Virus record (IMG/VR): IMGVR_UViG_3300045988_092126
Origin: a virus
Strand: one strand, 5' to 3'
Length of the DNA stretch: 64,000 nucleotides
The notes beneath the pieces are model-generated. The model was not told where the DNA came from. It saw only the letters and a program-made list of their open reading frames with translations, and did not search any database. This document shows positions 2,334 to 24,832 of the stretch, in pieces (positions within the stretch are counted from its first letter, which is position 1; every line of letters starts with the position of its first letter). The position numbers were made by a program, and so were the translations under genes.

Positions 2334-2355
2334 TCCACATTTTGTGGAGCAGCGG

Positions 2356-2415: not shown

Positions 2416-2418
2416 TCA

Positions 2419-2897: not shown

Positions 2898-2899
2898 TT

Positions 2900-2971: not shown

Positions 2972-2974
2972 TTC

Positions 2975-3045: not shown

Positions 3046-3104
3046 TTAATCCGCTTAGAATTATGCTATTTGTACACAGGCGGTCTATGGCTCAGGTGGA
3101 TTAT

Positions 3105-8756: not shown

Positions 8757-9179
8757 ATGGACACAAGAGAATATTTGAATCAAATCCAAAGATATGATAA
8801 AATCAGAAGAAACAAGCTCGAAGAGCTTGAATATCTTGAGTCTCTTGCACAAGGGATAAAATCTTTTTCATATGATTCTGAAAGAGTCCAGACATCCGGA
8901 CCATGCGACAAAATTGGAGAAACAGTAGCTAAAATCGTAGATTTAAAAAATGATATTATCGAAACTACAAATAAGTGTCTGGAAGTTCGCATTGAAGTTA
9001 CTAAAACAATTGATTCCGTGACTAACTCTGTTTTTTATGATATTCTTTTTAAAAGATATGCAGAAGGAAAGTCACTTGATGTAATCGCCGATGAAGTAGG
9101 TTATTCATATCAGAGGACTAAAGAACTTCATTTGTCCGCAATAGCAGCGGTGAAAAAAATAAAAGGGTTCGAATCTTAA
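8757..9179 (+). CDS. ArpU/RinA/DUF1492-like late transcriptional regulator (sigma-70 region 4-like HTH)
   Basis: 140 aa. The C-terminus reads FYDILFKRYAEGKSLDVIADEVGYSYQRTKELHLSAIAAVKKI. Confidence 0.6.
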   Translation: MDTREYLNQIQRYDKIRRNKLEELEYLESLAQGIKSFSYDSERVQTSGPCDKIGETVAKIVDLKNDIIETTNKCLEVRIEVTKTIDSVTNSVFYDILFKRYAEGKSLDVIADEVGYSYQRTKELHLSAIAAVKKIKGFES

Positions 9180-9285: not shown

Positions 9286-10755
9286 GTGGGGAGAAACAAA
9301 ATAAACTTTGTTGACCTATGCCAAGGAGAGTTTGGCAGAAAGATTGCCTATACTGGCGTAGACCAGATTACTCCCCAGAATGTGGCACAGGTTCTTTCTG
9401 ATACAATTGGAATCCACAACAGGAACAGAACCTTGATAGATTATCTATACAGATATTACAAAGGCGACCAGCCGATTCTATATCGTGAGAAACTTGTTCG
9501 GCCTGAGGTTAATAACAAAGTTGTCGAAAATCATGCTCTTGAAACAGTAAAATTCAAGGCCGGACAGATATATGGAGAACCTATTCAGTATGTCTGCAAA
9601 AAGAAAAAAGCGAGTGAAAAAATAAATGAACAAGTTGACCGGCTCAATGATTATCTGGATGAAGCCAACGCAGATGCCAGAAACATTCAGCTGGGGATAT
9701 ACCAGAGTGCAGTAGGAACTGCATATAAAGCAATCCTGAGAGAGGATGAATGGACAAAGGATGGAGACTTACCGCCTTTTAGAATATTTATCCCATCACC
9801 GCAGGATGTATATATTGTTTATTCAAGCGTTACTGGCAAACCAGTGCTTTCCGTCCAGATTTTAAAAGACGAGAACAATCAGCAGTATTACCAGTGTTAT
9901 TCTTCCAGACAGTATTTCAAAATTCAAAATGGAGCGGTAACAGAATCTGGAATCAATGGTTTTGGTGGTATTCCTATCATTGAATATCCGAATAATCACG
10001 ACAGACTTTCCGACATTGAAATTGCGATTACAATGTACGACGCAATCAACAAATATCAATCTGACAGACTGAATGGGGTTGAACAGTTCGTGCAAGCCCT
10101 GATGAAATTTAAAAACTGTGAGATTGATGAAGCAGAGTTCGTAAAGATGGTTAAACTAGGTGCGGTATCGGTAAAAGATGTTGGAAACGGAACACAATCA
10201 GACGTTGATTTAATGACCGCCGAACTAAACCAGTCAGAGAGCCAGGTTGCAAAAGACGACATTTACAATAATATGCTGATTGTCGAAGCAATGCCAAACC
10301 GACAAAGCAATACCGGTGGAGATACAGGCAATGCAGTATATCTAAGGAATGGTTGGGATTTCGCTGAACGCGATGCAAAGCTAGTAGAAGCATTCACAAA
10401 AGAATCCGAAAAGGCATCTGCCAGAATCATTTTGAATATCATTCGAAAAACATCAATGGATGTAAATATTTCAACCAGAGATTTCGATGTAAAAATCACC
10501 AGAAACCCGACTGATAATATGCTTGTTAAAGCGCAAGCACTTGATTATCTGTTTAAAAATAAAATTCATCCGCTTATTGCGTTGATTACTTGCGGATTAT
10601 TTAGTGATCCGCAAAAAGTATACGAAATGAGTTTGCCATATCTTGGGACCATTTATCCTGAATTAGCAGACCCAAACTCAGAGCTTCAAAAAGCACAAGA
10701 ACTGTTAGGGAATTTTAATCCAATTTCTCTGAATAAGGATGTGGTCAAAGAATGA
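9286..10755 (+). CDS. Portal protein (SPP1 gp6-like), GTG start
   Basis: 489 aa, positioned after terL. Contains ...YLYRYYKGDQPILYR...VVENHALETVKFKAGQIYGEPIQY. Confidence 0.8.
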   Translation: MGRNKINFVDLCQGEFGRKIAYTGVDQITPQNVAQVLSDTIGIHNRNRTLIDYLYRYYKGDQPILYREKLVRPEVNNKVVENHALETVKFKAGQIYGEPIQYVCKKKKASEKINEQVDRLNDYLDEANADARNIQLGIYQSAVGTAYKAILREDEWTKDGDLPPFRIFIPSPQDVYIVYSSVTGKPVLSVQILKDENNQQYYQCYSSRQYFKIQNGAVTESGINGFGGIPIIEYPNNHDRLSDIEIAITMYDAINKYQSDRLNGVEQFVQALMKFKNCEIDEAEFVKMVKLGAVSVKDVGNGTQSDVDLMTAELNQSESQVAKDDIYNNMLIVEAMPNRQSNTGGDTGNAVYLRNGWDFAERDAKLVEAFTKESEKASARIILNIIRKTSMDVNISTRDFDVKITRNPTDNMLVKAQALDYLFKNKIHPLIALITCGLFSDPQKVYEMSLPYLGTIYPELADPNSELQKAQELLGNFNPISLNKDVVKE

Positions 10756-12538: not shown

Positions 12539-13576
12539 ATGCCATTTAATATTTTAGAATCAATCACACCGGAAGAAAGACTTAACTTTTCTCAGGATTT
12601 CAGCGTAAAAAGGCCGGGCATTCTTGACACCATCTTCCCGGATGTCAAAACACAGTTTCTGAAAGCTGAATACTACAGACTTATGGCTGGACAGAGACTT
12701 CCAGAGGTAGCATTCGTTCATGCACTTGATACTGAAGCAGAAATCGGAACAAGACCGGGCTTCGAAAAAGTCCTGACTGAAAAGCTCTTTATTAAGAGAA
12801 AAATCAATCAGTCTGAGAGATTACAGCAGGCAATTGAAAATGGTGTGCCGGATGATGAGAATTTAAAGAAATTTGTATTTGATGATGCAGCTAATCTGTT
12901 TGAAGGAGTTGTTGCTAGAGCAAATGTCATGAAAGGCCAATTTCTTAGCACAGGTGTTGTAAAAATTAAAGAAAACAATGTGGATATGAGCATTGATTAT
13001 GGCGTTCCGTCCGATGCAAAAGTAGAAATGACAGACTGGTCTAAACCAGATGCAGATATCATGGGTGATATCCAGAAGATGGTCGCTATTGCAGAAGATA
13101 ATGGATTTGTGGTAAACAAAGCCCTTACCTCTCTCAAAATGATTAACTATATGAGAAATAACACTGCAATGCAGACCGCAGTTTTAGGAGCAGCTAACAA
13201 ACGTCTTCTGACCAAACAGGAACTCGCTAATCTGCTTATGCAGGAATACGGAATCACAATTGATCGCTGCGACGAGAAATTCAAATTCAGAAAAGCGGAT
13301 GGTTCTCTCAAAACAGGAAGATACTTCAAAGAAGATGTATTCACACTGTATGAAGCAGAGCCAAACGGTTCATTTGGTACTGGACTCTGGGGCGTAACAC
13401 GAGAGGAACTTGAATACAGACAGTTTATACAAGAAGAGAACCGTTCTTTCGTAACACTGTCTATGTGGGCCACTCCAGACCCTGTGGCAGTATGGACAAA
13501 AGCATCCGGTATGTTTGTTCCAGTAGCAGCAAAAGCTAATGGCGGTATCGTAATCGGTACCAAAGCGGGGGAATAA
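12539..13576 (+). CDS. Major capsid protein
   Basis: 345 aa. Position and size fit, and the sequence has a major capsid protein E-like character. Confidence 0.8.
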   Translation: MPFNILESITPEERLNFSQDFSVKRPGILDTIFPDVKTQFLKAEYYRLMAGQRLPEVAFVHALDTEAEIGTRPGFEKVLTEKLFIKRKINQSERLQQAIENGVPDDENLKKFVFDDAANLFEGVVARANVMKGQFLSTGVVKIKENNVDMSIDYGVPSDAKVEMTDWSKPDADIMGDIQKMVAIAEDNGFVVNKALTSLKMINYMRNNTAMQTAVLGAANKRLLTKQELANLLMQEYGITIDRCDEKFKFRKADGSLKTGRYFKEDVFTLYEAEPNGSFGTGLWGVTREELEYRQFIQEENRSFVTLSMWATPDPVAVWTKASGMFVPVAAKANGGIVIGTKAGE

Positions 13577-14213: not shown

Positions 14214-14525
14214 ATGGGATGTGAACATGAATGTTTTAATGAACACCGCATAGAAGAATTAGAGAATAGTCTTCGACAGATGCAAGAGAGACAATCCGAC
14301 CGCCATAAAGAGTTTTATGAGCGTATCGGGGAACTGGAAAGAAAGACAGCATTAAGTGAGAATGACTTGAACCATATCAAGTCAACTGTGGATGAGATGA
14401 ATAACAATATAAAGACTCTCATGGCAGTTCCAGGAAAGCGCTATGATACAATTATTGTATGTGTTATTACGGCAATTGTCGGCGCGGTTATCGGATTTAT
14501 GTTAAACGGCATTCTTCCAGTTTGA
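14214..14525 (+). CDS. XhlA-like protein (coiled coil + C-terminal TM)
   Basis: 103 aa. N-terminal coiled coil and C-terminal IIVCVITAIVGAVIGFMLNGIL. The call rests on architecture only. Confidence 0.45.
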   Translation: MGCEHECFNEHRIEELENSLRQMQERQSDRHKEFYERIGELERKTALSENDLNHIKSTVDEMNNNIKTLMAVPGKRYDTIIVCVITAIVGAVIGFMLNGILPV

Positions 14526-14554
14526 TTCCACTTGTAAGGGAGGACGGTGGAAAT

Positions 14555-14809
14555 ATGAATTATACAGACTTTTCAGAAGATGAAAGAAAATTTTACTTAA
14601 AAGAAGCAGGATTCGATTCCAGAGAAGAAAAACTGTTTCGTTTACGGGTTTATGGCGAGAAAACACTATGGGAAGCAGCTGAACTTATGGGGTATAGTCC
14701 AAGAACCATAGACCGAATTAATAAAAGAATAAAGAAGAAAATTTCTAAAGTTGCCCCGATGTACTGTCGGGGCTTTTCTTTGTATTGTGGCGAAAACGTG
14801 GCGAAATAG
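14555..14809 (+). CDS. Small sigma-70 region 4-like HTH protein
   Basis: Internal ATG with a GGAGG RBS. ...EKTLWEAAELMGYSPRTIDRINKRIKKKI. Confidence 0.55.
   Translation: MNYTDFSEDERKFYLKEAGFDSREEKLFRLRVYGEKTLWEAAELMGYSPRTIDRINKRIKKKISKVAPMYCRGFSLYCGENVAK
14753..14781 (+). terminator. Intrinsic terminator lying inside the last 19 codons of the preceding ORF
   Basis: GCCCCGA-tgtactg-TCGGGGC followed by TTTTCTTT. Confidence 0.65.
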
Positions 14810-14964
14810 TGACGTTCAAAAACAGAGTTCCTTCCTATATAATATAATCATAGGAGAAAACACAATGATTATGTTAAGAAACCCTTACGAGGGTATATGG
14901 GAAAAGCATCGTTCTATAGATGATATGGATATGATTCTTGAATCCCGGACAGGAGGAACAGATT

Positions 14965-15462
14965 ATGGCAGGTTATCCGTATTATCCGCAACAACCAATA
15001 ATAAACAATCCATACGGACAGATACAGCCGTATCAGGACAGGCTGGCGCAATTGCAGAATAATTACCAACAGGCAATGCCTTATGGTCAAATACAGATGC
15101 AACAGTTACAGCCGGTTCCACAATCACCTATGCTTCAAGGACAGATGGTGGATGGGATTGATACTGTAAAGGCTAAAGATGTGGATATGTCCGGCAATCC
15201 TGTTTACTATCCAAAAACAGACGGAACTGAAATTTACAGAAAACAGCTTCAATCCGATGGAAGGAGCAGAATTTTTGTTTACCGACTCGTAAATCCAGAT
15301 GAACAGCAATCTAAGCAAGATGAAAAGCAGATTGATATTGAAGCAATGTTTAATCAGCTTCGGAATGATGTTTGTTCGGAGATTTCTGAAATAAAGAATA
15401 TGTTTCCGACGCAGATGTCGGGGACATCGGAACCTAAGCAGAATGGAGGTAGGCAGAGATGA
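14965..15462 (+). CDS. Q/P/Y-rich low-complexity protein with a globular C-terminal domain
   Basis: AGGAGG RBS. MAGYPYYPQQPIINNPYGQIQPYQ...MQQLQPVPQSPMLQGQ, then VDGIDTVKAKDVDMSGNPVYYPKTDGTEIYRK. Confidence 0.65.
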   Translation: MAGYPYYPQQPIINNPYGQIQPYQDRLAQLQNNYQQAMPYGQIQMQQLQPVPQSPMLQGQMVDGIDTVKAKDVDMSGNPVYYPKTDGTEIYRKQLQSDGRSRIFVYRLVNPDEQQSKQDEKQIDIEAMFNQLRNDVCSEISEIKNMFPTQMSGTSEPKQNGGRQR

Positions 15463-15704
15463 CATTCAATCCAAACGCCATGATGAAAAAGCAATTTGAG
15501 AAAATGATCTCTCAGAGGTTCGGAAGTGTTGACAACATGATGAACGATATGAGCAAATTTGCAGGTAACAATCCAACATTGAAAAATGCTTTGGATTTAT
15601 ATAAAAAAGGTGATACAGACCAGTTACATCAAATACAGCAAAATGTATTTAATGAAAAGCACTTATCTCCAGATGGAATTATACAAAAATTCCTTGGATT
15701 ATAA
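15459..15704 (+). CDS. Hypothetical protein
   Basis: 81 aa with an ATGA overlap to the upstream gene. Confidence 0.55.
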   Translation: MTFNPNAMMKKQFEKMISQRFGSVDNMMNDMSKFAGNNPTLKNALDLYKKGDTDQLHQIQQNVFNEKHLSPDGIIQKFLGL

Positions 15705-15800
15705 CACTTCCCCACAATTGGGTGATTAAAAATCGCTACAATTCGGGACGACAGCCGCGGATGTCTCCTATTGTAAATAAAATTTAAGGAGACTAAAAAC

Positions 15801-16610
15801 ATGATGAATGGTTCAAATTATAGTCTTAGCGACATTGCTGCCGCTACAGGCTCTAATAATCGCGCCAATGATATGTGGGGCGGTGATGGCTTTTCACTTA
15901 TCTGGCTCGTCCTGATCTTCGCAATCTTCGGCTGGGGAGGTTTTGGCGGCTGGGGCGGCGGCTTTGGCGGTAACGGTGGAAACGGTGCGAACGGTGCCGG
16001 TTTCCAAGGATGGGCTACCCGTTCAGATATTAATGAGGAATTCGCCCTTAATGATATTCAGAATGGTATCAGAGGTATTCAGCAGGGTATCTGCGACAGC
16101 ACGTATTCTCTTAACAATACCATGCAGAGTGGCTTTAATGGTATGAATGTCGGAATGCTTCAAGGCTTCAACGGCGTTCAGCAGGCAATCAATGCTGATA
16201 CTGTAGCCGGTATGCAGAATACCAACGCATTACAGTCTCAGTTAGCAAACTGTTGCTGTGAAACAAGAGAAGCTATACAGGGTATCAACTACAACCTTGC
16301 TACCAACACTTGTGCTCTCCAGAACACAATGAACAACAACACCAGAGATCTTCTGGAAAACCAGAACAGCAACACAAGAGCAATCCTTGACTTCCTGACT
16401 AACGATAAGATTGCAACATTACAGGCAGAAAATACTGATCTGAAACGTGCTGCGTCTCAGGATCGTCAGTCTGCACTGCTTACAACTGCTATGGCTTCAC
16501 AGACTCAGCAGTTAATCAATGCAATTAATCCGGCGGCTATTCCGGCATATGTTGTTCCGAATCCGAATACCTATTACGGTGGATGCGGATGTAACAGCGG
16601 ATGCTGCTAA
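15801..16610 (+). CDS. TM + Gly/Trp-rich + Asn/Gln-rich protein with a Cys-rich tail
   Basis: FSLIWLVLIFAIFGWGGFGGWGGGFGGNGGNGANGAG..., an internal CCCE motif and a C-terminal YYGGCGCNSGCC. The RBS GGAGAC can pair with an upstream GTCTCC (15763-68). Confidence 0.7.
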   Translation: MMNGSNYSLSDIAAATGSNNRANDMWGGDGFSLIWLVLIFAIFGWGGFGGWGGGFGGNGGNGANGAGFQGWATRSDINEEFALNDIQNGIRGIQQGICDSTYSLNNTMQSGFNGMNVGMLQGFNGVQQAINADTVAGMQNTNALQSQLANCCCETREAIQGINYNLATNTCALQNTMNNNTRDLLENQNSNTRAILDFLTNDKIATLQAENTDLKRAASQDRQSALLTTAMASQTQQLINAINPAAIPAYVVPNPNTYYGGCGCNSGCC

Positions 16611-16640
16611 GTAACTCACCCTTAGAGGTTGACTAATTCT

Positions 16641-16672
16641 AAGAGGTGGGTTGCGGCTCACCTCTTATTTTG
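16641..16672 (+). terminator. Intrinsic terminator
   Basis: AAGAGGTG-ggttgcggct-CACCTCTT followed by ATTTT. Confidence 0.7.
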
Positions 16673-16688
16673 ATTGAGAGGTAAAGAT

Positions 16689-17114
16689 ATGAGTTGTAAA
16701 AATGTTTGTAAGCTCTGCAACCATCTTGTAATCAGCCAAGCCGTTGCGTTTACAGGAGGCAATCTTGTAATCACACTTCCGGCAGGCAGTTACAACAATG
16801 GAGAGAAATATTGTATTGTTGTTGCGCAAAGCATACCGGAAGCCACTACAATTACTGCTCCGGTAATGATTCAGATAGGAACAGGAACAACTTTGTATCC
16901 GCTAGAGAATCGTTGCTGCGCACAGGTTACGGCTTGCGGAATAAGAACCAGAACAAAGTACGCAACCAGAGTAGCTACAAGTGCAACCGGCGGAGTATTC
17001 AAGATGTTAGGAAATCCGGCTTGTAGTCCAAGTAACAATTTAACAGCAATTGATGGTACAGCCCCAACGACAGACACACCTGTTACACAGGCTGCCAGAA
17101 AGGGGGCAATGTAA
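16689..17114 (+). CDS. Cys-containing hypothetical protein
   Basis: MSCKNVCKLCNHLVISQAV...RCCAQVTACG. Internal ATG of ORF 16674..17114 with a GAGAGG RBS. Confidence 0.6.
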   Translation: MSCKNVCKLCNHLVISQAVAFTGGNLVITLPAGSYNNGEKYCIVVAQSIPEATTITAPVMIQIGTGTTLYPLENRCCAQVTACGIRTRTKYATRVATSATGGVFKMLGNPACSPSNNLTAIDGTAPTTDTPVTQAARKGAM

Positions 17115-17740
17115 TGCATAAAGTTGCAATGGAAATGGGAAAATGGGCTATGGAAAAAGCCAAAGCACATGGATTTGACAATCTTAGTTCTCAGGACTGG
17201 GATGATCTGAAAGATTGCTTAGAAGCGGTAAAATGCGCAATCTGTGCAGATAAAGATTACAGAATCGTAGAAGCTATGGACGAATGTGAACAGGAAGAGA
17301 AGTATCTTGGACGCATGGGATATGACAACTATCGTTACGCAAACGGCAGATTTGCACCAAAAGGCAGAGGAAGCCGAATGGGATATATGCCGTATCTCCA
17401 TATGCAGGATGACGACTGGGTAAGTGAATATCCGAGCAATCCAGAGTTTGAACGTAATATGTACCGCATGGGCTATCATCCAGACCGTAGTGATATGAGA
17501 ATGGACGGTATGAACAATAGGCAATCCAGATATGGTGAAACCTACGACAGATACAGCGAGAATCGCAGACATTACCATGATTCCAAAGATGCTGAATCTA
17601 AGAGAAAAATGGACGATTCCATGAAAGAGTATACAGAAGATATCATCCGCAATATGAAAGAAATGTGGGATGATGCAGACGCATCAATCAGACAGCAGAT
17701 GAAAACTGACTTAACACGTTTCATACAGCAGATGAATTGA
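17114..17740 (+). CDS. Charged protein with R-M-G-Y repeats
   Basis: 208 aa with RMGY occurring 3 times and D/E/R/K/Y/M-rich composition. Confidence 0.6.
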   Translation: MHKVAMEMGKWAMEKAKAHGFDNLSSQDWDDLKDCLEAVKCAICADKDYRIVEAMDECEQEEKYLGRMGYDNYRYANGRFAPKGRGSRMGYMPYLHMQDDDWVSEYPSNPEFERNMYRMGYHPDRSDMRMDGMNNRQSRYGETYDRYSENRRHYHDSKDAESKRKMDDSMKEYTEDIIRNMKEMWDDADASIRQQMKTDLTRFIQQMN

Positions 17741-17756: not shown

Positions 17757-17789
17757 GCCCTTGTTACAGGAATGTAGCAGGGGCTTTTT
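17757..17789 (+). terminator. Intrinsic terminator
   Basis: GCCCTTG...CAGGGGC followed by TTTTT. Confidence 0.6.
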
Positions 17790-17815: not shown

Positions 17816-18202
17816 ATGCTAAGACAATTTTACATGAACGGCGACCTATGGAGGGTGCAGTTTGTATCTCCGCATGACAGCGTGTTAATTGACCGTACAG
17901 GCAATAGAACACTTGGAGTATCGGATTATTCCACACATATTATTTCAATCGCAAATAACCTGTATGGAGAACTTCTGAACCGTGTATTTATTCATGAGCT
18001 AGGGCATTGCGTGATGTTCAGTTATGGTCTATTGCCAGAACTTCATCGTATGGTCAAGAAACGGTATTGGGTGGATGCAGAGGAATTTGTATGCAATATT
18101 CTGGCAGACTATGGACAGTTTGTTATTGGCACAGCCAGAGATATTTTAGGAAACCAGTTCACATATGTAGCTCCCATTGGGGCAGAAAGGATGATTGCAT
18201 AG
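17816..18202 (+). CDS. Small HExxH zinc metallopeptidase (ImmA/SprT/DUF955-like)
   Basis: The motif FIHELGHCVM in a 128 aa protein. Confidence 0.6.
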   Translation: MLRQFYMNGDLWRVQFVSPHDSVLIDRTGNRTLGVSDYSTHIISIANNLYGELLNRVFIHELGHCVMFSYGLLPELHRMVKKRYWVDAEEFVCNILADYGQFVIGTARDILGNQFTYVAPIGAERMIA

Positions 18203-18445
18203 ATGGCAAAAGCAGAAAACACAATTATTTTTGATGGCATTCAGTACAATCCCGGTGATGAATTGCCGGATTTAGGCAGTTGGGTATGTACAGATGCAAG
18301 AGGTATGGTTCGTGATTACGAGGGACTTTCAAAAGACGTGTCAAAGCTCCCGCATTATGTACAGAGTGGTTCTTCGGCGTTGTGCCTTGATACTTCTGAA
18401 TTATACGAATATCACAAACCTACTGATACATGGTACAAACTGTAA
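18203..18445 (+). CDS. Hypothetical protein
   Basis: 80 aa, immediately upstream of the tail fibre gene. Confidence 0.55.
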   Translation: MAKAENTIIFDGIQYNPGDELPDLGSWVCTDARGMVRDYEGLSKDVSKLPHYVQSGSSALCLDTSELYEYHKPTDTWYKL

Positions 18446-18458
18446 AGGAGAAGCGCAT

Positions 18459-20702
18459 ATGGCATTAACAGCAAAGAAAGTATATGCAATATTAAAACGC
18501 CAGATTTCCGATATGGAAGCAAAATTAAATAGCCCTGTAAGATACAGAGGTACAGTTGCGACTGCTGATTTGCTTCCATTAAATCCAGACATTGGCGATA
18601 TGTACAATATCGAGTCTAAATCTATTTACGGCGAAGCAGGAATGAATGTGGCATGGAACGGCGTAGTATGGGACACTATGGGCGCCCCGATTGATATGTC
18701 ACTTTACATTAAATCAAACGAATTAGCGGATTGGGTAAAACAGCAGAACAAGCCGACATATACAGCTGAAGAAGTTGGAGCGTTGCCGGCTGATACAAAG
18801 ATTCCAAGCAAAACCAGTGAATTGCAGAATGACTCTGGATTCTTGACTAAAATTCCAGACAATTATCTTTTCGAAACAGACAAAACACTGAACGTATCTG
18901 GAAAAGCTGCTGACGCAAAGGCTACCGGAGATAAAATCACAGAATTGTCAGCTGATATATCAAATAAATTGAATAAGAACCAAGGTTCGGAAAACTCTGG
19001 CAAGATTGCCGGAATTAACGAATCTGGCGATATCGTTCCGATGTTTCCAGTAAGCGTAGATTACAACGAAGAAACAAACTGCCTTGAGTTTGGGTCTGAT
19101 CAAAAAATGGAGCTTAATAAAGGTATCAACCTTGATAGCACTCTCACGAAGACTGGATATGCCGCTGATGCAGGCGCAGTTGGAGAAATAACTAATTCAC
19201 TAAAGGAAGATTTGTATGTTAAAACTTACAACATTTTTGATGTTAATTTTTTACCTCGAGCATTCATTCCTCTCACAGGCTCTCACGGCGGTGAACTGTT
19301 TCTTGATAATAATGATAATTATTCGGCAACAAATGAAACTATTAATGTTCTTCCGAATACTCAATACACCTTTTCAAATGGTAGTGAATCTATCCCTTAT
19401 GAGTTACAGTTAAGTGTTATTTTTTATGACAAAGATATGAGGTTCTTAGGTTATGCAAGTAACACCATTAATAATTTTTCAAAATTTTTTAAATTTACAA
19501 CTATTGAAAACACTAATCATCTAAGATTTCAACTTCGTTCCACAGGAAAAGGCTCGGATATTCCTAATATAAAAAAATGGCAGTTAAACGAGGGTAATCT
19601 ATTACCTTATTTGGATAATTATGTGTTAAATTGTTCAACGGATAATATTGGAAATGAATTAACCGATATAAACATTGATAATCCACAGGTCAGAGATTTT
19701 GTTGAAGATGTTGATTACACAAATCAAGAATACACAATAACACAAGTTGGTACATATTCTGCACCATCTGTTTATTATAGAAAAGATTGTGGTTTTCCAA
19801 TGGTTGTTAAATGGAAATTAAATAGAGATATAAAAAATCAAATATTATATATTTCTACAAACAAATTAATTCCTATTGCTGATACAGTTGCTGTGAAATC
19901 ATATGATATTCCTTGTGGAATAAGTGATTTTGCTGTATATAATTTAATCCCAAATGCAACATATTACTATAAAGTTTGTGGTACTGATTTTGACAACAAT
20001 TTAATTGTAATTAAAGAAGGGTGTTTTACCACTATTGGACAAGTGCATATGTTAAAAATTGACGGATTAAAAAATGTTCGTGATTTAGGTGGTTGGCTTA
20101 CGCCAAATGGTAAAATTAAATACGGATTATTATTTAGAGGTTGCGAACTTGATGATACCGGAGTCGGTGTGGAATTAACACATGAAGGTAAAAAAGAACT
20201 TTTTGATAGAATAAGAATAAAAACTGACATTGATTTAAGAACGGATGTTGGTAATACAAAATCGCCTATCGGTACTCTTGTTGATTATAATTGTTATCCT
20301 ATTCAACCATATGATACAGGTTTGAAAGACACTATAACAAAAGGATTAATAAAATCTATTTTTGAAAAAATTGAAGAAAAGTTATCAAAAAGTAATGCGA
20401 TATATTTCCATTGCCAAGGTGGTAGAGATAGAACTGGAACACTTGCTTTTTTGATTCTAGGTGTTTTAGGTGTGAGCGAATCCGATATAGCAAAAGATTA
20501 TGAACTTACAGAATTTGCGTATGCAAGTTATAAGGCTGATAATCCGAATACGTCTAGGAAGTTTGCTCAATATGTATCTATGGTAAGTTATATTAAAACT
20601 TTCAATGGGGCAACATTTAATGATAAGATTATTAGTTATCTTTTGAGCATCGGAATTAGTCAAGCCACTATTAACAATATTAAGTCGTATATGGTTGCTT
20701 AA
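18459..20702 (+). CDS. Tail fibre-like protein with a C-terminal protein-tyrosine-phosphatase-like domain
   Basis: Internal ATG with a GGAG RBS. The N-terminus (YRGTVATADLLP..GDMYNI..AWNGVVWDTMG) and the G-x-AADA-x-x-x-G repeats are typical of fibres. The C-terminus has NVRDLGGW...IDLR...HCQGGRDRTG, a CX5R signature at 20409-20438. Confidence 0.7.
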   Translation: MALTAKKVYAILKRQISDMEAKLNSPVRYRGTVATADLLPLNPDIGDMYNIESKSIYGEAGMNVAWNGVVWDTMGAPIDMSLYIKSNELADWVKQQNKPTYTAEEVGALPADTKIPSKTSELQNDSGFLTKIPDNYLFETDKTLNVSGKAADAKATGDKITELSADISNKLNKNQGSENSGKIAGINESGDIVPMFPVSVDYNEETNCLEFGSDQKMELNKGINLDSTLTKTGYAADAGAVGEITNSLKEDLYVKTYNIFDVNFLPRAFIPLTGSHGGELFLDNNDNYSATNETINVLPNTQYTFSNGSESIPYELQLSVIFYDKDMRFLGYASNTINNFSKFFKFTTIENTNHLRFQLRSTGKGSDIPNIKKWQLNEGNLLPYLDNYVLNCSTDNIGNELTDINIDNPQVRDFVEDVDYTNQEYTITQVGTYSAPSVYYRKDCGFPMVVKWKLNRDIKNQILYISTNKLIPIADTVAVKSYDIPCGISDFAVYNLIPNATYYYKVCGTDFDNNLIVIKEGCFTTIGQVHMLKIDGLKNVRDLGGWLTPNGKIKYGLLFRGCELDDTGVGVELTHEGKKELFDRIRIKTDIDLRTDVGNTKSPIGTLVDYNCYPIQPYDTGLKDTITKGLIKSIFEKIEEKLSKSNAIYFHCQGGRDRTGTLAFLILGVLGVSESDIAKDYELTEFAYASYKADNPNTSRKFAQYVSMVSYIKTFNGATFNDKIISYLLSIGISQATINNIKSYMVA

Positions 20703-20797
20703 CTAAAGAGGGCTTTAGTTAACTATTAAAACCACAGGCACAGCGCATTTAATCATTATAAACAGTTGACAATAAATAACAGATATGGAGGAATCAC

Positions 20798-22000
20798 ATG
20801 AAAACGCAGAAAACAAAAGGATTTTATGACCGTGAAAATGATACGGTACATATTTTTATTCCGCCTGCTCCGACAGAATCGGAGAGAGGTGGAATTACTG
20901 CAAAAGAAAAAACAACGGAATCCCTCGAAGTTACTATTGATTCAGCTACGGGGAAAGCATATGTAGCACTCGACAAAACACTTTCAAAGACAGGCGAGGC
21001 GGCGGATGCAGCAGTTGTAGGCGAAAAACTCACATCAATGGGTGTCGCAATTGAAAATGTAAAGGAAGATAAAGCCGATAAAACATCTCTTGCACAAACC
21101 GACAGAAAGCTTGATGCACTCTGGAAACTCAATCAGGGTATCAGCTATGAATTTCAGACAGATGAAGCAGAAGCATATCAGAAAACGGTTCCGAGTGGTG
21201 CAAAGATGGTAAGCATTAAAAGTATTGGCGGTAAGACGATTGTCTGGAATCAGTTAAATTTGAATAACGAAAATTCTGTTACGAAAAACGGTATTTCTTT
21301 TATAAACAATAAGGACGGTTCGTGGACAATAACTGGAACTTGTAGTACATCTAATGGCGGCAGTGCTGACGTACTAATATACGGATTTGCAGTTAAATAT
21401 GTATCAGGTCATAAATATTTAGTTAAAGCCGATAAATATTCTGATGGAAATTATGGTTTTGCAATTAACGGCAGGTCTTACCCACTAAAAAAAGCAATAA
21501 TTATTAATTACGCTTTTAATCCAGTAATATTTGTAAACGACAAGGCAACCGTGGATAACGTTACGATGCGAATGAATATTTTCGACCTCACCCAAATGTT
21601 CGGCGCAGGTAACGAACCATCCACCCCAGAGGAATTCGAAGCTATGTTTCCAGCAGACTATTATCCGTACAATGCAGGCGAGTTGATGAGCGCACCTGTG
21701 AATGAAGTTGTATATTTAGATACCAAAAATCAAGAAACATCATATCCAATCCCACAAGCCATTCTTGACCTAGAGGGTTATGGAGAGAGTGGGAATTTTG
21801 TTGATTTTGTGGAAAAGAAATACCACAAAGGGGACAGGACGATTGATATATCAGACATTATGGGAGATACATTCCAACAACCTCTTGAAGTTGAAGTAGG
21901 CGGTACACTGACGTTCAAAAACAGCAACGGTAATGATTACAGAATCCCTGTACCAAGCTCAGAGGAATATGTAATATCTTTAGCGGAGGTAGCAAAATGA
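20798..22000 (+). CDS. Tail fibre / receptor-binding protein
   Basis: 400 aa. It shares the LDKTLSKTGEAADAAVVGEKL motif with the preceding gene. Confidence 0.6.
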   Translation: MKTQKTKGFYDRENDTVHIFIPPAPTESERGGITAKEKTTESLEVTIDSATGKAYVALDKTLSKTGEAADAAVVGEKLTSMGVAIENVKEDKADKTSLAQTDRKLDALWKLNQGISYEFQTDEAEAYQKTVPSGAKMVSIKSIGGKTIVWNQLNLNNENSVTKNGISFINNKDGSWTITGTCSTSNGGSADVLIYGFAVKYVSGHKYLVKADKYSDGNYGFAINGRSYPLKKAIIINYAFNPVIFVNDKATVDNVTMRMNIFDLTQMFGAGNEPSTPEEFEAMFPADYYPYNAGELMSAPVNEVVYLDTKNQETSYPIPQAILDLEGYGESGNFVDFVEKKYHKGDRTIDISDIMGDTFQQPLEVEVGGTLTFKNSNGNDYRIPVPSSEEYVISLAEVAK

Positions 22001-22681: not shown

Positions 22682-22773
22682 GGAGTTAGGTTCCCGACTA
22701 CCAATCAAAAAAAACCTAACTCCAACACCACAAAGGGTACAGTATTATTATAACATGGTACTCTCCCTTTGTG
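22682..22773. repeat. Two inverted repeats upstream of the recombinase gene (attP or operator candidates)
   Basis: GGAGTTAGGTT(22682-92)/AACCTAACTCC(22713-23) and CACAAAGGG(22729-37)/CCCTTTGTG(22765-73). Confidence 0.5.
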
Positions 22774-22796
22774 AACCCAAAAGGAGGGTATTTTTT

Positions 22797-23792
22797 ATGA
22801 GAGATAAATTCGTGAATGGGTTCATGACAAAACTGTATGGAGAAATTCCGGAAGAGTATCTGGAAACGATCAGAAACAAACTGGCGTTGTATGTAAATGA
22901 TTTTGATATCAGTCAAAGAGAAACAGCAGTTGTAAAGTATACTGGATATTTGCCGGATTTTTACAAAACTTACATTGTAAGTAGAAAAATCGAGGGTTTG
23001 AGTAAAAAGACGCTCGAACTCTACAATCTTTATCTGAATGATTTCTTTTTCACATTCAATAAAAAAGCTGAAGATATTACCTCAAATGACATTCGTGTAT
23101 ATCTGTATAATGCTCAGGAAAGCAGAAGTCTAAGTAATCGAACACTTGATAGCCGCAGAACTGCCATTCATGCATTTTTCGAATGGGCTGCAAACGAGGG
23201 ATATGTGGGCAAAAACCCATGCAGATCAATCAAAAATATCAAATATGAGCGTATAGAAAAACAACCTCTGACAGATATGGAACTGGAAAGAATCAGGCAA
23301 GCTTGCGAAACCGTACGTGAAAAAGCACTGGTTGAATTTCTGTATAGTACCGGAGCCAGGGTTACAGAAGTGTGTGGTGTAAAGAAAACAGATATAGACA
23401 TTTACAAAGGTGAAGTAGTTGTTTTGGGGAAAGGCAACAAGCATAGAACAACATACCTAAACGCTCGTTGTAAATTACTTTTAAAACAATACTTTGCAAT
23501 TAGAGATGATGAATCGGAATATCTTTTTGTAAGTGAAAGGAAACCACATAAGGTACTCAAAAAAGAAGCAATTGAAAGAATTGTACGAATAATCGGTGAA
23601 CGGGCAGAACTGGACAGACCTCTAACACCGCATCTATTTAGGCATACTCTTGCGACTCTTATGCTTCAAAGAGGTACGCCGATTACTGAGGTGCAGAAGA
23701 TTCTTGGACATGTCAACATTAACACGACAATGATCTATGCAAAGGTATCTGATGAAGATGTAAAAGTGTCTCATATGAAATATGCAATATAA
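22797..23792 (+). CDS. int: Tyrosine recombinase / integrase (XerC/D-like)
   Basis: Contains TGARVTEV, GKGNKHR, HLFRHTLAT and GHVNINTTMIYAKV, which supply the R..K..HxxR..H..Y catalytic set. Confidence 0.85.
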   Translation: MRDKFVNGFMTKLYGEIPEEYLETIRNKLALYVNDFDISQRETAVVKYTGYLPDFYKTYIVSRKIEGLSKKTLELYNLYLNDFFFTFNKKAEDITSNDIRVYLYNAQESRSLSNRTLDSRRTAIHAFFEWAANEGYVGKNPCRSIKNIKYERIEKQPLTDMELERIRQACETVREKALVEFLYSTGARVTEVCGVKKTDIDIYKGEVVVLGKGNKHRTTYLNARCKLLLKQYFAIRDDESEYLFVSERKPHKVLKKEAIERIVRIIGERAELDRPLTPHLFRHTLATLMLQRGTPITEVQKILGHVNINTTMIYAKVSDEDVKVSHMKYAI

Positions 23793-24726: not shown

Positions 24727-24800
24727 CATACTGAAACATACTATTCAAAATGGTATACTATAACATATAAAAGCATCTGCAAACAAGCAGGTGCTTTTTT
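24727..24800 (+). promoter_or_regulatory. Repeated late element, copy 2
   Basis: CATACTGAAACATACT (24727-42), 11 nt gap, TGGTATACT, GCATCTGC/GCAGGTGC hairpin (24773-94), TTTTTT, CATGCA. Confidence 0.6.
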
Positions 24801-24832
24801 CATGCAAAAACATAGAAAAGGAGAATGTAAGC

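What the first reader, a model, noticed from the sequence alone, without database searches (positions are those of the whole stretch)
14214..17740. Cassette of compositionally extreme proteins with private regulators
Seven consecutive genes:
- an XhlA-like coiled-coil/TM protein;
- an 84 aa sigma-region-4-like HTH protein;
- a Q/P/Y-rich protein (YPYYPQQPIINNPYGQIQPYQ...);
- an 81 aa protein;
- a TM + WGGFGGWGGGFGGNGG + N/Q-rich protein ending in YYGGCGCNSGCC;
- a Cys-containing 141 aa protein;
- a charged protein with RMGY repeats.

The genes are individually bracketed by a promoter (TTCAAA-N17-TATAAT around 14815-14850) and by terminators at 14753, 16641 and 17757. The RBS of the Gly/Cys-rich gene can be sequestered by an upstream GTCTCC.

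I recognise no family for five of the seven. The composition recalls spore-coat, exosporium or matrix proteins rather than virion parts.
Basis: partly seen in the sequence, partly recalled or inferred. Interest (0 to 1): 0.68.

Follow-up and report, generated by a model that had tools for sequence, protein, structure and literature searches.

The report
Widespread unknown accessory operon in gut phages
The flagged genes are real, and most of them form one copy of a very common, portable and dispensable phage operon of unknown function that probably builds a membrane-anchored stalk-and-head protein complex, with no good evidence that it is a spore-coat or virion part.

Summary
They are two units. 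g1 and g2 (XhlA-like membrane protein, 84-aa sigma-region-4 HTH) end at the terminator at 14753. g3-g7, plus the next gene g8 (HExxH peptidase), are one copy of a conserved operon.

Order: small peptidase; P/Q/Y-rich protein; ~75-aa N/Q-rich protein; membrane-anchored coiled-coil protein; small Cys-rich beta protein; R/G/Y-rich protein. About 60 of 72 loci keep this order. Relatives of g5 occur in at least 491 IMG/VR contigs and about 8,000 protein clusters.

Two slots have interchangeable, non-homologous occupants. The g6 slot holds either the g6 type or a BclA-C-like protein. The peptidase is either a Cys-His-Asp type or HExxH.

The operon has its own promoter, and a conserved structured leader with a terminator lies between g5 and g6. 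It sits in variable regions next to lysis genes or integrases. Close relatives with 97%-identical capsid genes lack part or all of it, so it is accessory rather than virion.

No core protein matches Pfam, NCBIfam, PADLOC or PDB. My mechanism, a g5 stalk carrying a g6 head at the membrane, is inference. The spore-coat reading is weakly supported.

The parts
14214..14525 (+). g1: XhlA-like protein with an N-terminal coiled coil and a C-terminal TM helix. It belongs to the upstream unit with g2.
   Evidence: It matches phrog_937 'hemolysin' at 1.3e-12 and phrog_1193 at 9.5e-9. The maximum hydropathy is 2.72 at residues 79-97. There is no Pfam hit above cut-off. It is retained in relatives that have lost g3-g9.
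14555..14809 (+). g2: 84-aa sigma-70 region-4-type HTH protein. It is too short to be a sigma factor. Its last ~19 codons run through the terminator.
   Evidence: Matches: Sigma70_r4 3.4e-4 (20.5 bits, cut-off 24.1), TIGR02937 5e-8 (32.7 bits, cut-off 42.9) and phrog_36 1.6e-6. A related HTH gene lies upstream of the operon in 47 of 72 sources.
14753..14773 (+). Intrinsic-terminator-like hairpin that ends the g1-g2 unit.
   Evidence: It has 9 pairs, 6 of them GC, followed by a T-run. The fold z-score is -3.2.
14815..14843 (+). Sigma-A-type promoter-like site (TTCAAA-N17-TATAAT) in front of g3.
   Evidence: It matches 10 of 12 consensus positions. Many sister loci show a hairpin and T-run followed by what look like extended -10 elements just upstream of the first operon gene (by eye). 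Function is not shown.
14965..15462 (+). g3 (family F3): a P/Q/Y-rich N-terminal low-complexity region followed by a small conserved domain.
   Evidence: It matches phrog_21718 at 1.8e-20 and has no Pfam or NCBIfam hit. It is found in 64 of 72 sources, always directly before F4.
15459..15704 (+). g4 (family F4): 81-aa N/Q/M/K-rich protein. Its start overlaps the end of g3.
   Evidence: It has no family hit. It is found in 62 of 72 sources, and the median F3-F4 overlap is 8 nt. It is swapped together with g5 in 10 close relatives.
15750..15793 (+). g4-g5 spacer elements: a near-palindrome GACAGCCGCGGATGTC, then TGTAAATAAAAT, and the GTCTCC/GGAGAC pairing over the g5 RBS.
   Evidence: Palindromes with a GC-rich centre followed by a TGTAAATAAA-like sequence recur 25-50 nt upstream of F5 in many loci. 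The spacer's fold z-score is only -1.4. HNH homing endonucleases insert in this spacer in sister loci.
15801..16610 (+). g5 (family F5), the signature gene. From N to C: an acidic tail of ~30 aa, a (W/F)GGD motif, a hydrophobic helix, a Gly-rich linker, two long helices with an invariant CCC, and a Cys-rich C-terminal tail.
   Evidence: It matches phrog_16490 at 8.3e-66. At least 7,996 protein clusters belong to the family, with no Pfam domain and no source name among the 120 listed. AF2 predicts helices 31-42, 74-137 and 144-242, with mean pLDDT 57. Invariant residues include G44, G96, C151-153, Y164, T181-R182-D183 and D197; W45, G46, G47, C98 and D99 are nearly invariant. Foldseek finds nothing in PDB or BFVD.
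16611..16688 (+). Structured g5-g6 leader. It holds the hairpin TCACCCTTAGAGGTTGA (16616-16632), the terminator (16640-16667) and alternative pairings that involve the g6 RBS.
   Evidence: The fold z-score is -5.4. The motif TC-stem-loop-stem-TGA occurs in 19 of 24 g6-type leaders against 1.2 +/- 1.0 in shuffles. Its stem has 7 different covarying sequences. A GC hairpin with a T-run precedes the F6 RBS in most of the 37 leaders folded. There is no Rfam match.
16689..17114 (+). g6 (family F6a): 141-aa beta-rich protein with 8 conserved Cys, including an N-terminal C-x3-C-x2-C and a CC pair.
   Evidence: The family has 5,855 clusters at 90% identity and 376 at 50% identity. None of 68 diverse members has a Pfam hit. 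A PDB profile search finds nothing. The AF2 model shows beta strands but has pLDDT 51. The same slot holds a non-homologous BclA_C-like protein in 37 loci.
17114..17740 (+). g7 (family F7): helical N- and C-terminal ends around an R/G/Y/D/M-rich disordered centre with RMGY repeats. Its start overlaps the stop of g6.
   Evidence: It is found in 59 of 72 sources, and the median F6-F7 gap is 12 nt. It has no family hit.
17757..17784 (+). Terminator-like hairpin after g7.
   Evidence: It has 12 pairs followed by a T-run. The fold z-score is -3.3.
17816..18202 (+). g8 (family F8): 128-aa HExxH metallopeptidase-like protein. I count it as part of the conserved operon.
   Evidence: It carries the motif HELGH and matches phrog_1233 at 2.3e-10. 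It follows F7 in 12 sources. No source has both F8 and the Cys-His-Asp peptidase-like gene c2, which is present in 41 loci.
18203..18445 (+). g9: 80-aa protein that is co-retained and co-deleted with g3-g8 in the close relatives of this phage.
   Evidence: It is 91-100% identical in nearly all relatives that reach it and is absent from the deletion variants. It was not found in the other lineages.

Best explanation
The flagged stretch holds two transcription units.

Unit 1 is g1-g2: an XhlA-like membrane protein and a small HTH protein. It ends at the terminator at 14753.

Unit 2 is g3-g7 plus g8. It is one copy of a self-contained accessory operon of the moron type (an extra gene block with its own promoter and terminator). 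The operon circulates among tailed phages and prophages of gut Clostridia.

Shown by the evidence:
- The gene order is conserved.
- The operon has its own promoter and terminators.
- A conserved structured leader with a terminator separates g5 from g6-g7.
- It moves between unrelated phages.
- It sits in variable regions next to lysis genes or the integrase.
- It is lost in close relatives.

Inferred mechanism:
- g5 anchors in the cytoplasmic membrane by its single hydrophobic helix.
- Its two long helices form an oligomeric coiled-coil stalk.
- Its Cys-rich C-terminal tail holds the small Cys-rich beta protein g6 as a head. In about half of the family a BclA-C/TNF-like protein takes this place.
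- The low-complexity proteins g3, g4 and g7 are assembly partners.
- The small peptidase (g8 here, a Cys-His-Asp peptidase elsewhere) matures one component. One possibility is cleavage of g5 at the conserved (W/F)GGD motif just before the hydrophobic helix.
- The finished complex changes the envelope of the infected or lysogenic cell, for example by excluding other phages. It does not become part of the virion.
For: Unit and order:
- Iterated HMMs over 71 loci plus the window find F3 in 64, F4 in 62, F5 in 72, F6a in 28 or F6b in 37, and F7 in 59 sources.
- The genes almost always lie in the order F3-F4-F5-F6-F7.
- Spacing is conserved: overlapping F3/F4, a ~60-nt gap, F5, a ~90-nt gap, then coupled F6/F7.

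Peptidase slot:
- c2 has invariant Cys17, His97 and Asp108 and occurs in 41 loci.
- F8 (HExxH) occurs in 12 sources, and none has both.
- Both peptidase types combine with both F6 types.

Autonomy:
- The window has a terminator, a promoter-like site and a terminal terminator.
- Sister loci show a hairpin and T-run followed by what look like extended -10 elements (by eye).
- The phages of the window, Dulem virus 35 and Ceridwen share little beyond the module. The window's capsid gene has no match in the other two at E<1e-5.

Position:
- In many loci the operon lies after an endolysin, and in about a dozen an integrase follows it.
- In the window lineage it lies upstream of variable cargo and the integrase at 22755-23792.

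Dispensability: relatives with 97%-identical capsid genes lack g3-g9 (L176), g4-g9 (L181), g5-g9 (L190) or g6-g9 (L188).

g5 architecture:
- AF2 gives a TM helix at 31-42, a disordered Gly-rich linker, helices 74-137 and 144-242, and a disordered Cys-rich tail.
- The N-terminal tail is acidic: 0.9 K/R against 3.1 D/E on average.
- The CCC motif is invariant and the C-terminal Cys residues are conserved.

g6: it has 8 conserved Cys and is beta-rich. The one member of the alternative slot family that was scanned matches BclA_C over nearly the whole domain.

Leader: the structured g5-g6 leader argues for controlled g6-g7 dosage.
Against: - No physical interaction, membrane insertion, cleavage or expression has been shown.
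- Both AF2 models are of low confidence (pLDDT 51 and 57). Neither has a structural neighbour.
- The similarity of g5's C-terminal tail does not track the F6 type any better than the rest of the protein does. The proposed tail-to-head contact therefore has no co-variation support.
- g3, g4, g6 and g7 have no signal peptide (by eye). The complex would have to form on the cytoplasmic face, which needs an N-out/C-in topology for g5. That topology is suggested only by charge bias.
- Disulfide bonding is doubtful in a reducing cytoplasm and an anaerobic gut. The Cys residues could bind metal instead.
- In at least 5 loci the operon sits inside the head-gene block. That placement would also fit a structural role.
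- Ceridwen, probably virulent, keeps the operon. This does not favour a purely lysogenic function.
- The deletion variants are metagenomic contigs and could be defective or misassembled.
Confidence: 0.4

Rival explanations
1. Lysis or egress accessory. The operon extends the lysis cassette. Together with XhlA-like and holin-like membrane proteins, the g5 complex would act at the membrane or wall late in infection, for example to time or complete lysis. g5 would then resemble a holin-regulator or i-spanin-like bitopic coiled-coil protein.
For: - In many loci the operon directly follows an endolysin (GH25, M23 or NlpC/P60) and a small TM protein, c12.
- In Dulem virus 35 the XhlA-like gene, c12 and the HTH gene lie between the c2 peptidase and F3.
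- g1 matches XhlA-type PHROGs.
- g5 has an N-terminal TM segment, two coiled-coil helices and conserved Cys, as i-spanins do (the comparison comes from my knowledge of lambda Rz).
- The operon is kept in the probably virulent phage Ceridwen.
Against: - In the window the endolysin lies 25 kb away at 39543-40934.
- g1-g2 stay when g3-g9 are deleted, so they are separable.
- I saw no lipoprotein partner, and most hosts are monoderm.
- Low-complexity P/Q/Y-rich and R/G/Y-rich proteins and a Cys-rich beta protein are not features of any known lysis system.
- Relatives without the operon still carry complete head and tail genes.
Confidence: 0.2
2. Spore-surface or cell-surface lysogenic conversion. 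The prophage would supply coat, exosporium or appendage-like proteins that assemble in the mother cell and change the properties of spores or cells.
For: - The composition is Cys-, Tyr-, Gly- and Q/N-rich, and no core protein except g5 has an export signal.
- In 37 loci the g6 slot holds a family whose scanned member is BclA C-terminal-domain-like (PF18573 at 4.4e-7).
- The genome-contig loci are assigned mostly to Clostridia and some Bacilli. These groups are largely spore-formers, which is my own knowledge.
- The operon is accessory, has its own promoter and lies near the integrase.
Against: - g6 has no detectable relation to BclA_C, Ena/DUF3992 or any coat family.
- The BclA_C match is below Pfam's cut-off, and such jelly-roll domains also occur in phage fibres.
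- Candidate promoters look sigma-A-like (by eye).
- A complete operon is present in phage Ceridwen of Butyrivibrio fibrisolvens. That genus is non-sporulating (my knowledge), and only lytic growth was seen.
- A few loci are binned to Bacteroidales and other non-sporulating groups, although the binning is doubtful.
Confidence: 0.12
3. Dispensable virion appendage. g5 would be a trimeric coiled-coil fibre and g6 its distal knob, attached to the head or neck. g3, g4 and g7 would serve as chaperones and the peptidase as a maturation enzyme.
For: - The operon lies within or next to head genes in the window, Dulem virus 35, L016, L021, L023 and L025.
- Long helices combined with a jelly-roll-like alternative head resemble a fibre and knob.
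- g5 gives a weak tblastn match to a crAss-like 'viral fiber' ORF.
- Homing endonucleases and a group I intron invade the operon, as they often do late phage genes.
Against: - g5 carries a strongly hydrophobic TM-like helix.
- The operon has its own promoter, terminators and an attenuator-like leader.
- The same operon occurs with unrelated capsid types.
- Relatives with near-identical structural genes lack it.
- I saw no recognisable virion-attachment domain.
Confidence: 0.12
4. Prophage-borne anti-phage defence or superinfection-exclusion system of a new type. It would combine a membrane effector (g5), a protease and sensor or partner proteins.
For: - It lies in the variable region near the integrase and is gained, lost and shuffled between phages.
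- It includes a TM protein and a peptidase.
- HTH genes lie nearby.
Against: - There is no significant PADLOC hit. The best is ZorA at E=0.016, over coiled coil only.
- It has no nuclease, ATPase or nucleotide-signalling domain.
- Five low-complexity or structural-looking proteins are unlike known defence systems.
- It is present in a probably virulent phage.
Confidence: 0.1

Closest known systems
Phage morons and lysogenic-conversion cassettes (the HK97/HK022 concept of extra genes with their own promoter and terminator)
   Same: It has its own promoter-like site and terminators. It is inserted between conserved blocks and is present or absent among close relatives. It usually lies in the variable region between the lysis genes and the integrase.
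   Different: It is a conserved operon of 6-8 genes with internal regulation and interchangeable parts, not one or two genes. No conversion phenotype is known. It is also kept in a probably virulent phage.
PBSX-type lysis region with XhlA (xepA-xhlA-xhlB-xlyA of Bacillus subtilis)
   Same: g1 is an XhlA-type protein with a coiled coil and a C-terminal TM helix. In sister loci the operon follows an endolysin. PBSX also carries an extra beta-sandwich protein of unclear role (XepA) beside its lysis genes.
   Different: No holin or endolysin is adjacent in the window. None of g3-g7 resembles XepA, XhlB or XlyA in the scans run. g1-g2 are separable from g3-g8.
i-spanin Rz of lambda-like phages, and class-I-fusion-like bitopic coiled-coil proteins
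   Same: g5 has a single N-terminal TM helix, two long helices separated by a short break, and conserved Cys residues.
   Different: I saw no o-spanin lipoprotein partner. Most hosts have no outer membrane. g5 is almost twice as long and has a Gly-rich linker and a Cys-rich tail. There is no sequence or Foldseek similarity.
BclA C-terminal domain (exosporium nap, TNF/C1q-like trimer) and Ena endospore-appendage subunits (DUF3992)
   Same: The alternative occupant of the g6 slot aligns with BclA_C over nearly the whole domain in the one member scanned. g6 is a small, Cys-rich, beta-rich protein with an N-terminal Cys cluster. That design recalls disulfide-linked Ena subunits.
   Different: g6 itself matches neither family (68 diverse members scanned; profile-profile probability <1%). 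The sister match is below Pfam's cut-off. There is no collagen stalk and no sporulation context.
Double-glycine leader processing by C39-type peptidases (class II bacteriocins and microcins)
   Same: Sister loci encode a ~125-aa protein with invariant Cys17, His97 and Asp108. g5 has a conserved (W/F)GGD motif just before a hydrophobic, Gly-rich segment and carries C-terminal Cys residues.
   Different: The three c2 members scanned have no Pfam hit, including to C39. I saw no ABC exporter. The window has an HExxH peptidase instead. g5 is far larger than bacteriocins. Cleavage is pure conjecture.

Membership tests
XhlA (PBSX-type lysis-associated membrane protein), for g1 | Sequence match to XhlA family models | tested here: met
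   g1 matches phrog_937 at 1.3e-12 and phrog_1193 at 9.5e-9, both labelled 'hemolysin'. No XhlA model appears among the Pfam hits at E<=1.
XhlA (PBSX-type lysis-associated membrane protein), for g1 | About 90-110 aa, with an N-terminal coiled coil and a C-terminal TM helix | tested here: met
   g1 is 103 aa. It gives generic coiled-coil hits over residues 10-70. The hydrophobic maximum is 2.72 at residues 79-97.
XhlA (PBSX-type lysis-associated membrane protein), for g1 | Located next to a holin and an endolysin | tested here: not met
   The only endolysin found in the window is at 39543-40934 (NlpC/P60 plus ELLD). In sister locus L071 an F1 gene does follow a GH25-type lysin.
Sigma-70 / ECF sigma factor, for g2 | Region 4 HTH | tested here: inconclusive
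   Sigma70_r4 scores 20.5 bits (cut-off 24.1) and TIGR02937 scores 32.7 bits (cut-off 42.9). The alignment covers the region-4 part only.
Sigma-70 / ECF sigma factor, for g2 | Region 2 (core binding and -10 recognition) | tested here: not met
   g2 is only 84 aa and the match is confined to model positions 116-163 of 165. It is therefore an HTH protein and not a sigma factor.
BclA C-terminal domain (PF18573), for g6 | Profile match to BclA_C | tested here: not met
   g6 gives no hit at E<=1. None of 68 diverse family members hits any Pfam family. hhalign against the BclA_C-like sister family gives a probability of 0.6-0.8%. The one sister protein scanned scores 30.3 bits against a cut-off of 38.
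Ena endospore appendage subunits (DUF3992), for g6 | DUF3992 jelly-roll domain | tested here: not met
   There is no Pfam hit. A profile search of PDB sequences finds nothing. The AF2 model is too poor (pLDDT 51) for a fold comparison, and its Foldseek hits are meaningless.
Ena endospore appendage subunits (DUF3992), for g6 | An N-terminal Cys-containing connector plus Cys residues in the body for inter-subunit disulfides | tested here: inconclusive
   C3, C7, C10, C42, C76, C77, C83 and C112 are conserved. The pattern is only analogous, and no polymer has been shown.
Moron (autonomous accessory transcription unit in a phage genome) | Own promoter and terminator flanking the genes | tested here: met
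   The promoter-like site is at 14815-14843, and terminators lie at 14753 (upstream) and 17757 (downstream). Similar hairpin and -10-like arrangements appear in sister loci (by eye). Activity was not measured.
Moron (autonomous accessory transcription unit in a phage genome) | Present or absent between otherwise closely related phages, and found in unrelated phage backbones | tested here: met
   Deletion variants L176, L181, L188 and L190 have 97%-identical capsid genes. The module is shared by phages whose other genes are mostly unrelated.
i-spanin / o-spanin pair | Bitopic protein with an N-terminal TM helix and a coiled-coil domain | tested here: met
   The AF2 model of g5 shows a TM helix at 31-42 and helices at 74-137 and 144-242.
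i-spanin / o-spanin pair | Partner outer-membrane lipoprotein gene (lipobox) embedded or adjacent, in a diderm host | tested here: not met
   By eye, none of the translations of g3-g9 shows a signal peptide followed by a lipobox Cys. The loci are assigned overwhelmingly to monoderm Clostridia.
Known anti-phage defence systems (PADLOC-DB 2.0) | Match of any component to a defence-system model | tested here: not met
   There are only weak coiled-coil-type hits (best E 0.002-0.04), and g2, g3, g6, g7 and g8 have none.

The most novel reading that the evidence does not exclude
The operon encodes a previously unrecognised phage-borne machine. It would be a protease-matured, membrane-anchored coiled-coil stalk with an exchangeable Cys-rich or TNF-like head. 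Its design would be analogous to spanins or class I fusion proteins, but in monoderm hosts. Assembly would involve prion-like low-complexity proteins and control by a new attenuator RNA. It would give gut Clostridia prophages a new kind of envelope function, such as exclusion, adhesion or control of membrane remodelling.
Probability: 0.2. Interest if true: 0.85.

Novelty: categorically new. Interest (0 to 1): 0.62.

Why it matters
This is not a one-off oddity. The signature protein has about 8,000 clusters at 90% identity, and at least 491 IMG/VR contigs encode a relative. Yet none of the five core proteins has a Pfam or NCBIfam match, a name from any source, or a solved or predicted structural neighbour.

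Several features suggest a multi-protein device under selection rather than filler genes:
- The gene order is strictly conserved.
- Two slots are filled by non-homologous, interchangeable parts.
- A peptidase is dedicated to the operon.
- A structured leader is conserved.

Working out its function would annotate one of the larger dark gene sets of human and animal gut phages. It could also reveal a new way in which temperate phages change their Clostridia hosts. Butyrivibrio phage Ceridwen is a cultured phage in which the operon could be studied.

Tried and rejected
- **Ena or BclA identity of g6.** There were no Pfam, PDB or profile-profile matches. The AF2 model of g6 from a shallow alignment was poor (pLDDT 51), and its Foldseek hits were meaningless.
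- **Fold of g5.** AF2 with 101 sequences gave only long helices (pLDDT 57, pTM 0.23). Foldseek found nothing in PDB and nothing significant in BFVD.
- **PDB profile searches for the sister-locus families.** The c2 peptidase-like family and the BclA_C-like family gave nothing usable.
- **Known defence system.** PADLOC gave no significant hit.
- **g2 as regulator of g5.** I looked for palindromes in front of g5 that co-vary with g2. Palindromes exist, but they do not track the g2 type. L014 and L029 share a palindrome and have different HTH proteins. Rejected as evidence.
- **Contact between the g5 tail and the g6 head.** I tested whether similarity of the g5 C-terminal tail follows the F6 type more than the rest of the protein does. 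It does not: 48 of 65 for the tail against 50 of 65 for the N-terminal part.
- **Integrated island with att repeats between 13.4 and 26.5 kb.** There were no convincing flanking direct repeats. The only finding was an unexplained exact 16-nt repeat.
- **Rfam identity of the g5-g6 leader.** None found. My first tool alignment of the leader used some wrong coordinates and was uninformative. I replaced it with a motif count against shuffles.
- **Literature.** Searches on BclA with phage, exosporium with prophage, Ena with phage, and XhlA in Clostridia found nothing that describes this operon.
- **Neighbourhood of a g5 relative on a 322-kb genome contig.** Almost no Pfam families are recorded for the neighbouring genes, so it gave no clue to function.

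Full report
**1. What is in the window**

Seven consecutive + strand ORFs lie at the stated coordinates:

| Gene | Coordinates | Length |
|---|---|---|
| g1 | 14214-14525 | 103 aa |
| g2 | 14555-14809 | 84 aa |
| g3 | 14965-15462 | 165 aa |
| g4 | 15459-15704 | 81 aa |
| g5 | 15801-16610 | 269 aa |
| g6 | 16689-17114 | 141 aa |
| g7 | 17114-17740 | 208 aa |

The compositions are as extreme as described.

The surroundings are a tailed phage:
- large terminase, 7019-8755;
- a 140-aa sigma-like regulator, 8757-9179;
- portal, 9286-10755;
- head morphogenesis gene, scaffold-like gene and major capsid gene (12539-13576);
- after the cassette, an HExxH protein (g8, 17816-18202) and an 80-aa protein (g9);
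- an 802-aa ORF (18294-20702) with a tyrosine-phosphatase domain, and a 400-aa ORF;
- a tyrosine integrase, 22755-23792;
- an anti-repressor, then tail genes from about 25.5 kb;
- an NlpC/P60 endolysin, 39543-40934.

IMG/VR contigs that carry a g5 100% identical to the window's are 74-78 kb long.

**2. Family searches**

- g1 matches XhlA-type PHROGs at 1.3e-12.
- g2 is a region-4-only HTH protein, with matches below the curated cut-offs.
- g3 and g5 belong to PHROGs of unknown function (21718 and 16490).
- g4, g6 and g7 match nothing.
- No core protein matches Pfam, NCBIfam or PADLOC.
- g6 has 5,855 relatives at E<=0.001 in the 90% clusters and 376 in the 50% clusters. None of 68 diverse members has a Pfam domain.
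- A profile of g5 found at least 7,996 clusters. The 120 listed carry no Pfam domain and no source name.

**3. It is a conserved operon**

g5 relatives in annotated phages (Dulem virus 35, bajarodcaudo virus 5, Butyrivibrio phage Ceridwen) sit among genes of the same sizes.

A scan of species-representative genomes gave 68 further loci. Most are gut Clostridia MAGs (Lachnospiraceae, Oscillospiraceae, Ruminococcus, Acutalibacteraceae). Some are Bacilli, and a few are doubtful bins from other phyla.

I ran iterated HMM searches over all ORFs of the 71 loci plus the window. They find F3 in 64 sources, F4 in 62, F5 in 72, F6a in 28 or F6b in 37, and F7 in 59. The order is almost always F3-F4-F5-F6-F7.

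Low-complexity profiles can drift. The fixed position and spacing of the hits argue against that here:
- F3/F4 overlap by a median of 8 nt.
- The F4-F5 gap is about 60 nt.
- The F5-F6 gap is about 90 nt.
- The F6-F7 gap is 12 nt.

Two slots are filled by alternative, unrelated proteins.

*The g6 slot.* It holds either the window's Cys-rich 141-aa type or a ~150-aa family. The one member of that family that I scanned (Dulem virus 35) aligns with the BclA C-terminal domain at 4.4e-7, below Pfam's cut-off. The two families are not detectably homologous. They have been exchanged repeatedly relative to the other genes.

*The peptidase slot.* It holds either a ~125-aa protein with invariant Cys17, His97 and Asp108 (c2, 41 loci, placed before F3 or after F7) or the HExxH protein F8 (12 sources, including the window). 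No source has both.

I therefore count g8 as part of the operon.

**4. Two units, not one**

A terminator at 14753-14773 and a promoter-like site at 14815-14843 separate g1-g2 from g3.

In close relatives of this phage, g1 and g2 remain when g3-g9 are gone.

In other lineages an XhlA-like gene, a small TM protein (c12) and an HTH gene often precede the operon. In Dulem virus 35 they lie between c2 and F3. The association is recurrent but loose.

**5. Accessory and mobile**

Three complete or near-complete phages that carry the module share little else. The window's capsid gene has no match in the other two at E<1e-5.

The operon occupies two kinds of position:
- After the endolysin, in many loci. 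In about a dozen of them an integrase follows on the opposite strand.
- Inside or just after the head genes, as in the window, Dulem virus 35, L016, L021, L023 and L025.

Eighty IMG/VR relatives have 92-100% identical capsid genes. Nearly all that reach far enough carry g1-g9. Four do not:

| Relative | Retained | Missing |
|---|---|---|
| L176 | g1, g2 | g3-g9 |
| L181 | g1-g3 | g4-g9 |
| L190 | g1-g4 | g5-g9 |
| L188 | g1-g5 | g6-g9 |

In all four the deletion runs towards the integrase and anti-repressor region. The 802-aa and 400-aa ORFs are not conserved at full length in any relative. This part of the genome is therefore a variable cargo zone.

These contigs are metagenomic, so viability is assumed and not shown.

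**6. Regulation inside the operon**

*The g5-g6 spacer.* It is strongly structured in the window (MFE -34.9 kcal/mol, z -5.4).
- In most of the 37 leaders folded, a GC-rich hairpin with a T-run sits just before the F6 RBS.
- In g6-type loci it is preceded by a small hairpin of the form TC-stem-loop-stem-TGA.
- That motif occurs in 19 of 24 leaders, against 1.2 +/- 1.0 in dinucleotide shuffles.
- Its stem takes 7 different complementary sequences: CCC/GGG, GCC/GGC, ACC/GGT, ACTT/AAGT, GGCT/AGCT, CGG/CCG and CGC/GCG.
- In several loci, and in the window, the 5' strand of this hairpin can instead pair with the 5' arm of the terminator. This is a classic attenuator layout.
- In the window the 3' arm of the terminator can also pair with the g6 RBS.
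- BclA_C-type loci have different leaders, one of them with a strand complementary to the terminator loop.
- Nothing in Rfam matches.

I infer that g6-g7 dosage is controlled separately from g3-g5.

*The g4-g5 spacer.* It carries palindromes and a TGTAAATAAA-like element in many loci.

**7. What the proteins look like**

*g5.*
- AF2 with 101 sequences (pLDDT 57) predicts a short N-terminal helix, a TM helix at 31-42, a disordered Gly-rich linker at 46-73, helices at 74-137 and 144-242, and a disordered Cys-rich tail.
- The low pTM is what I would expect for a monomer model of an oligomeric coiled coil.
- Conservation is not generic. Conserved features are the (W/F)GGD motif before the TM helix, GWGG after it, G96-C98-D99, an invariant CCC, Y164, T181-R182-D183, D197 and the C-terminal Cys residues.
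- The N-terminal tail is acidic. That is compatible with an N-out/C-in insertion, which would put the stalk in the cytoplasm with the signal-less partners.

*g6.* It is beta-rich with eight conserved Cys.

*g7.* It has helical ends around an R/G/Y/D/M-rich centre. g3 has a prion-like P/Q/Y-rich N-terminal region.

No model has a structural neighbour.

**8. Interpretation**

The shown facts define a portable, dispensable and internally regulated multi-protein operon.

I infer the mechanism from architecture alone. g5 would be a membrane-anchored stalk, and g6 or its TNF-like substitute would form the head. The low-complexity proteins would be partners, and a peptidase would mature one component.

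I put it at about 0.4, because dispensability and mobility argue against a virion role. The TM protein and the frequent neighbourhood of lysis genes and membrane proteins point to the envelope.

Rivals and their weights:
- lysis accessory, 0.2;
- spore or cell-surface conversion, 0.12;
- virion fibre, 0.12;
- defence system, 0.1.

Four observations weaken the spore reading:
- Ceridwen has no integrase, was seen only in the lytic cycle and infects Butyrivibrio (PMC7372960).
- Candidate promoters look sigma-A-like (by eye).
- g6 matches no coat, Ena or BclA family.
- The only positive hint is the sub-threshold BclA_C match in the sister gene.

**9. Mobile-element traffic**

- HNH-NUMOD homing endonucleases sit between F4 and F5 in several loci.
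- A group I intron splits F5 in L051 (RF00028, 69.7 bits).
- In 10 close relatives of the window phage, g4 and g5 are replaced together by a divergent allele (28% and 43% identity). g3, g6 and g7 stay 91-96% identical.
- In L178, the one such relative I mapped, an HNH gene lies between the swapped genes. Co-conversion during homing is the simplest explanation.

**10. Novelty and limits**

My literature searches found no description of this operon. The library is incomplete, so this is absence of evidence only.

I rate it as lying outside every known kind of system, because every membership test for the core genes failed. The function is unknown. The mechanism is a hypothesis that the listed experiments can test.

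Noticed in passing
window 16611-16688; sister loci such as L007 1505-1622, L012 2725-2836, L034 8577-8704 and L030 8754-8877: The spacer between g5 and g6 is a conserved structured RNA leader whose type depends on the downstream gene. g6-type loci have a TC-stem-loop-stem-TGA hairpin (19 of 24 against ~1 expected, with 7 covarying stems), then a terminator, with possible antiterminator pairing. BclA_C-type loci have either three hairpins or a strand complementary to the terminator loop, which could form a pseudoknot. There is no Rfam match.
   Followed up: partly
L051 8229-8510: A group I intron (RF00028, 69.7 bits) interrupts the g5 homologue. The g5 homologue also appears split in L009, L011, L018 and L071, where no intron model matched.
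   Followed up: partly
L034 7085-7600 (-), L040 1429-1965, L178 13182-13742 (-): HNH-NUMOD homing endonuclease genes are inserted in the g4-g5 spacer. In 10 close relatives of the window phage, g4 and g5 are swapped together for an allele with 28% and 43% identity, while the flanking genes stay above 90%. In L178, the one relative mapped, an HNH gene lies between the swapped genes. This looks like co-conversion during homing.
   Followed up: partly
L176, L181, L190, L188 (IMG/VR relatives of the window phage): These are nested natural deletions that start at different points inside the cassette and end near the integrase and anti-repressor. In L176 an ORF that starts in the g2 region runs into the integrase. 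In L190 a 519-aa ORF has a g5-like N-terminus.
   Followed up: partly
window 18294-22000: An 802-aa ORF carries a C-terminal tyrosine-phosphatase domain (PF13350, 2.7e-27), and a 400-aa ORF follows it. Neither is conserved at full length in any of 80 close relatives. Only N-terminal parts of the 802-aa protein recur, joined to other C-termini, as in fibre or cargo proteins with swappable ends.
   Followed up: partly
window 22755-23792 and 24791-25471: A tyrosine integrase (phrog_1, 1.6e-60) and an anti-repressor sit between the head and tail gene blocks. That is an unusual place for a lysogeny module. No flanking att-like repeats were found.
   Followed up: partly
window 14810-14825 and 21909-21924: The exact 16-nt sequence TGACGTTCAAAAACAG occurs twice, against 0.08 expected. 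One copy covers the -35 region of the cassette promoter. The other lies inside the coding sequence of the 400-aa ORF. Two further short matches to g6 and g7 sequence lie next to the second copy. This is unexplained.
   Followed up: partly
window 8757-9179: A 140-aa sigma-like transcription regulator (phrog_36, 1.1e-14) lies between the terminase and portal genes. The g2 HMM also hits it, so g2 looks like a shortened relative of it.
   Followed up: no
window 2170-3176: A cluster of five tRNA genes lies upstream of the packaging genes.
   Followed up: no
window 41047-43069 (- strand): Directly after the endolysin, on the opposite strand, lie three genes: a response-regulator-like protein (LytTR type by eye), a 267-aa protein with a signal-peptide-like N-terminus, and a small TM protein. 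This looks like a second accessory block.
   Followed up: no
L019 9231-10013, L039 5629-6390, L052 8225-8896: In three loci the g7 slot holds a different protein. It has a similar R/D/E/M/Y-rich N-terminal half and a conserved C-terminal half. In L019, the one scanned, that half is a DUF7841 domain (5.8e-13). This would be a third interchangeable slot.
   Followed up: no
sister loci, for example L003 10302-10628 and L006 9544-9861: A ~105-aa protein (cluster c9, 18 loci) follows g7 homologues where g8 is absent. It has no family match in the two members scanned.
   Followed up: no
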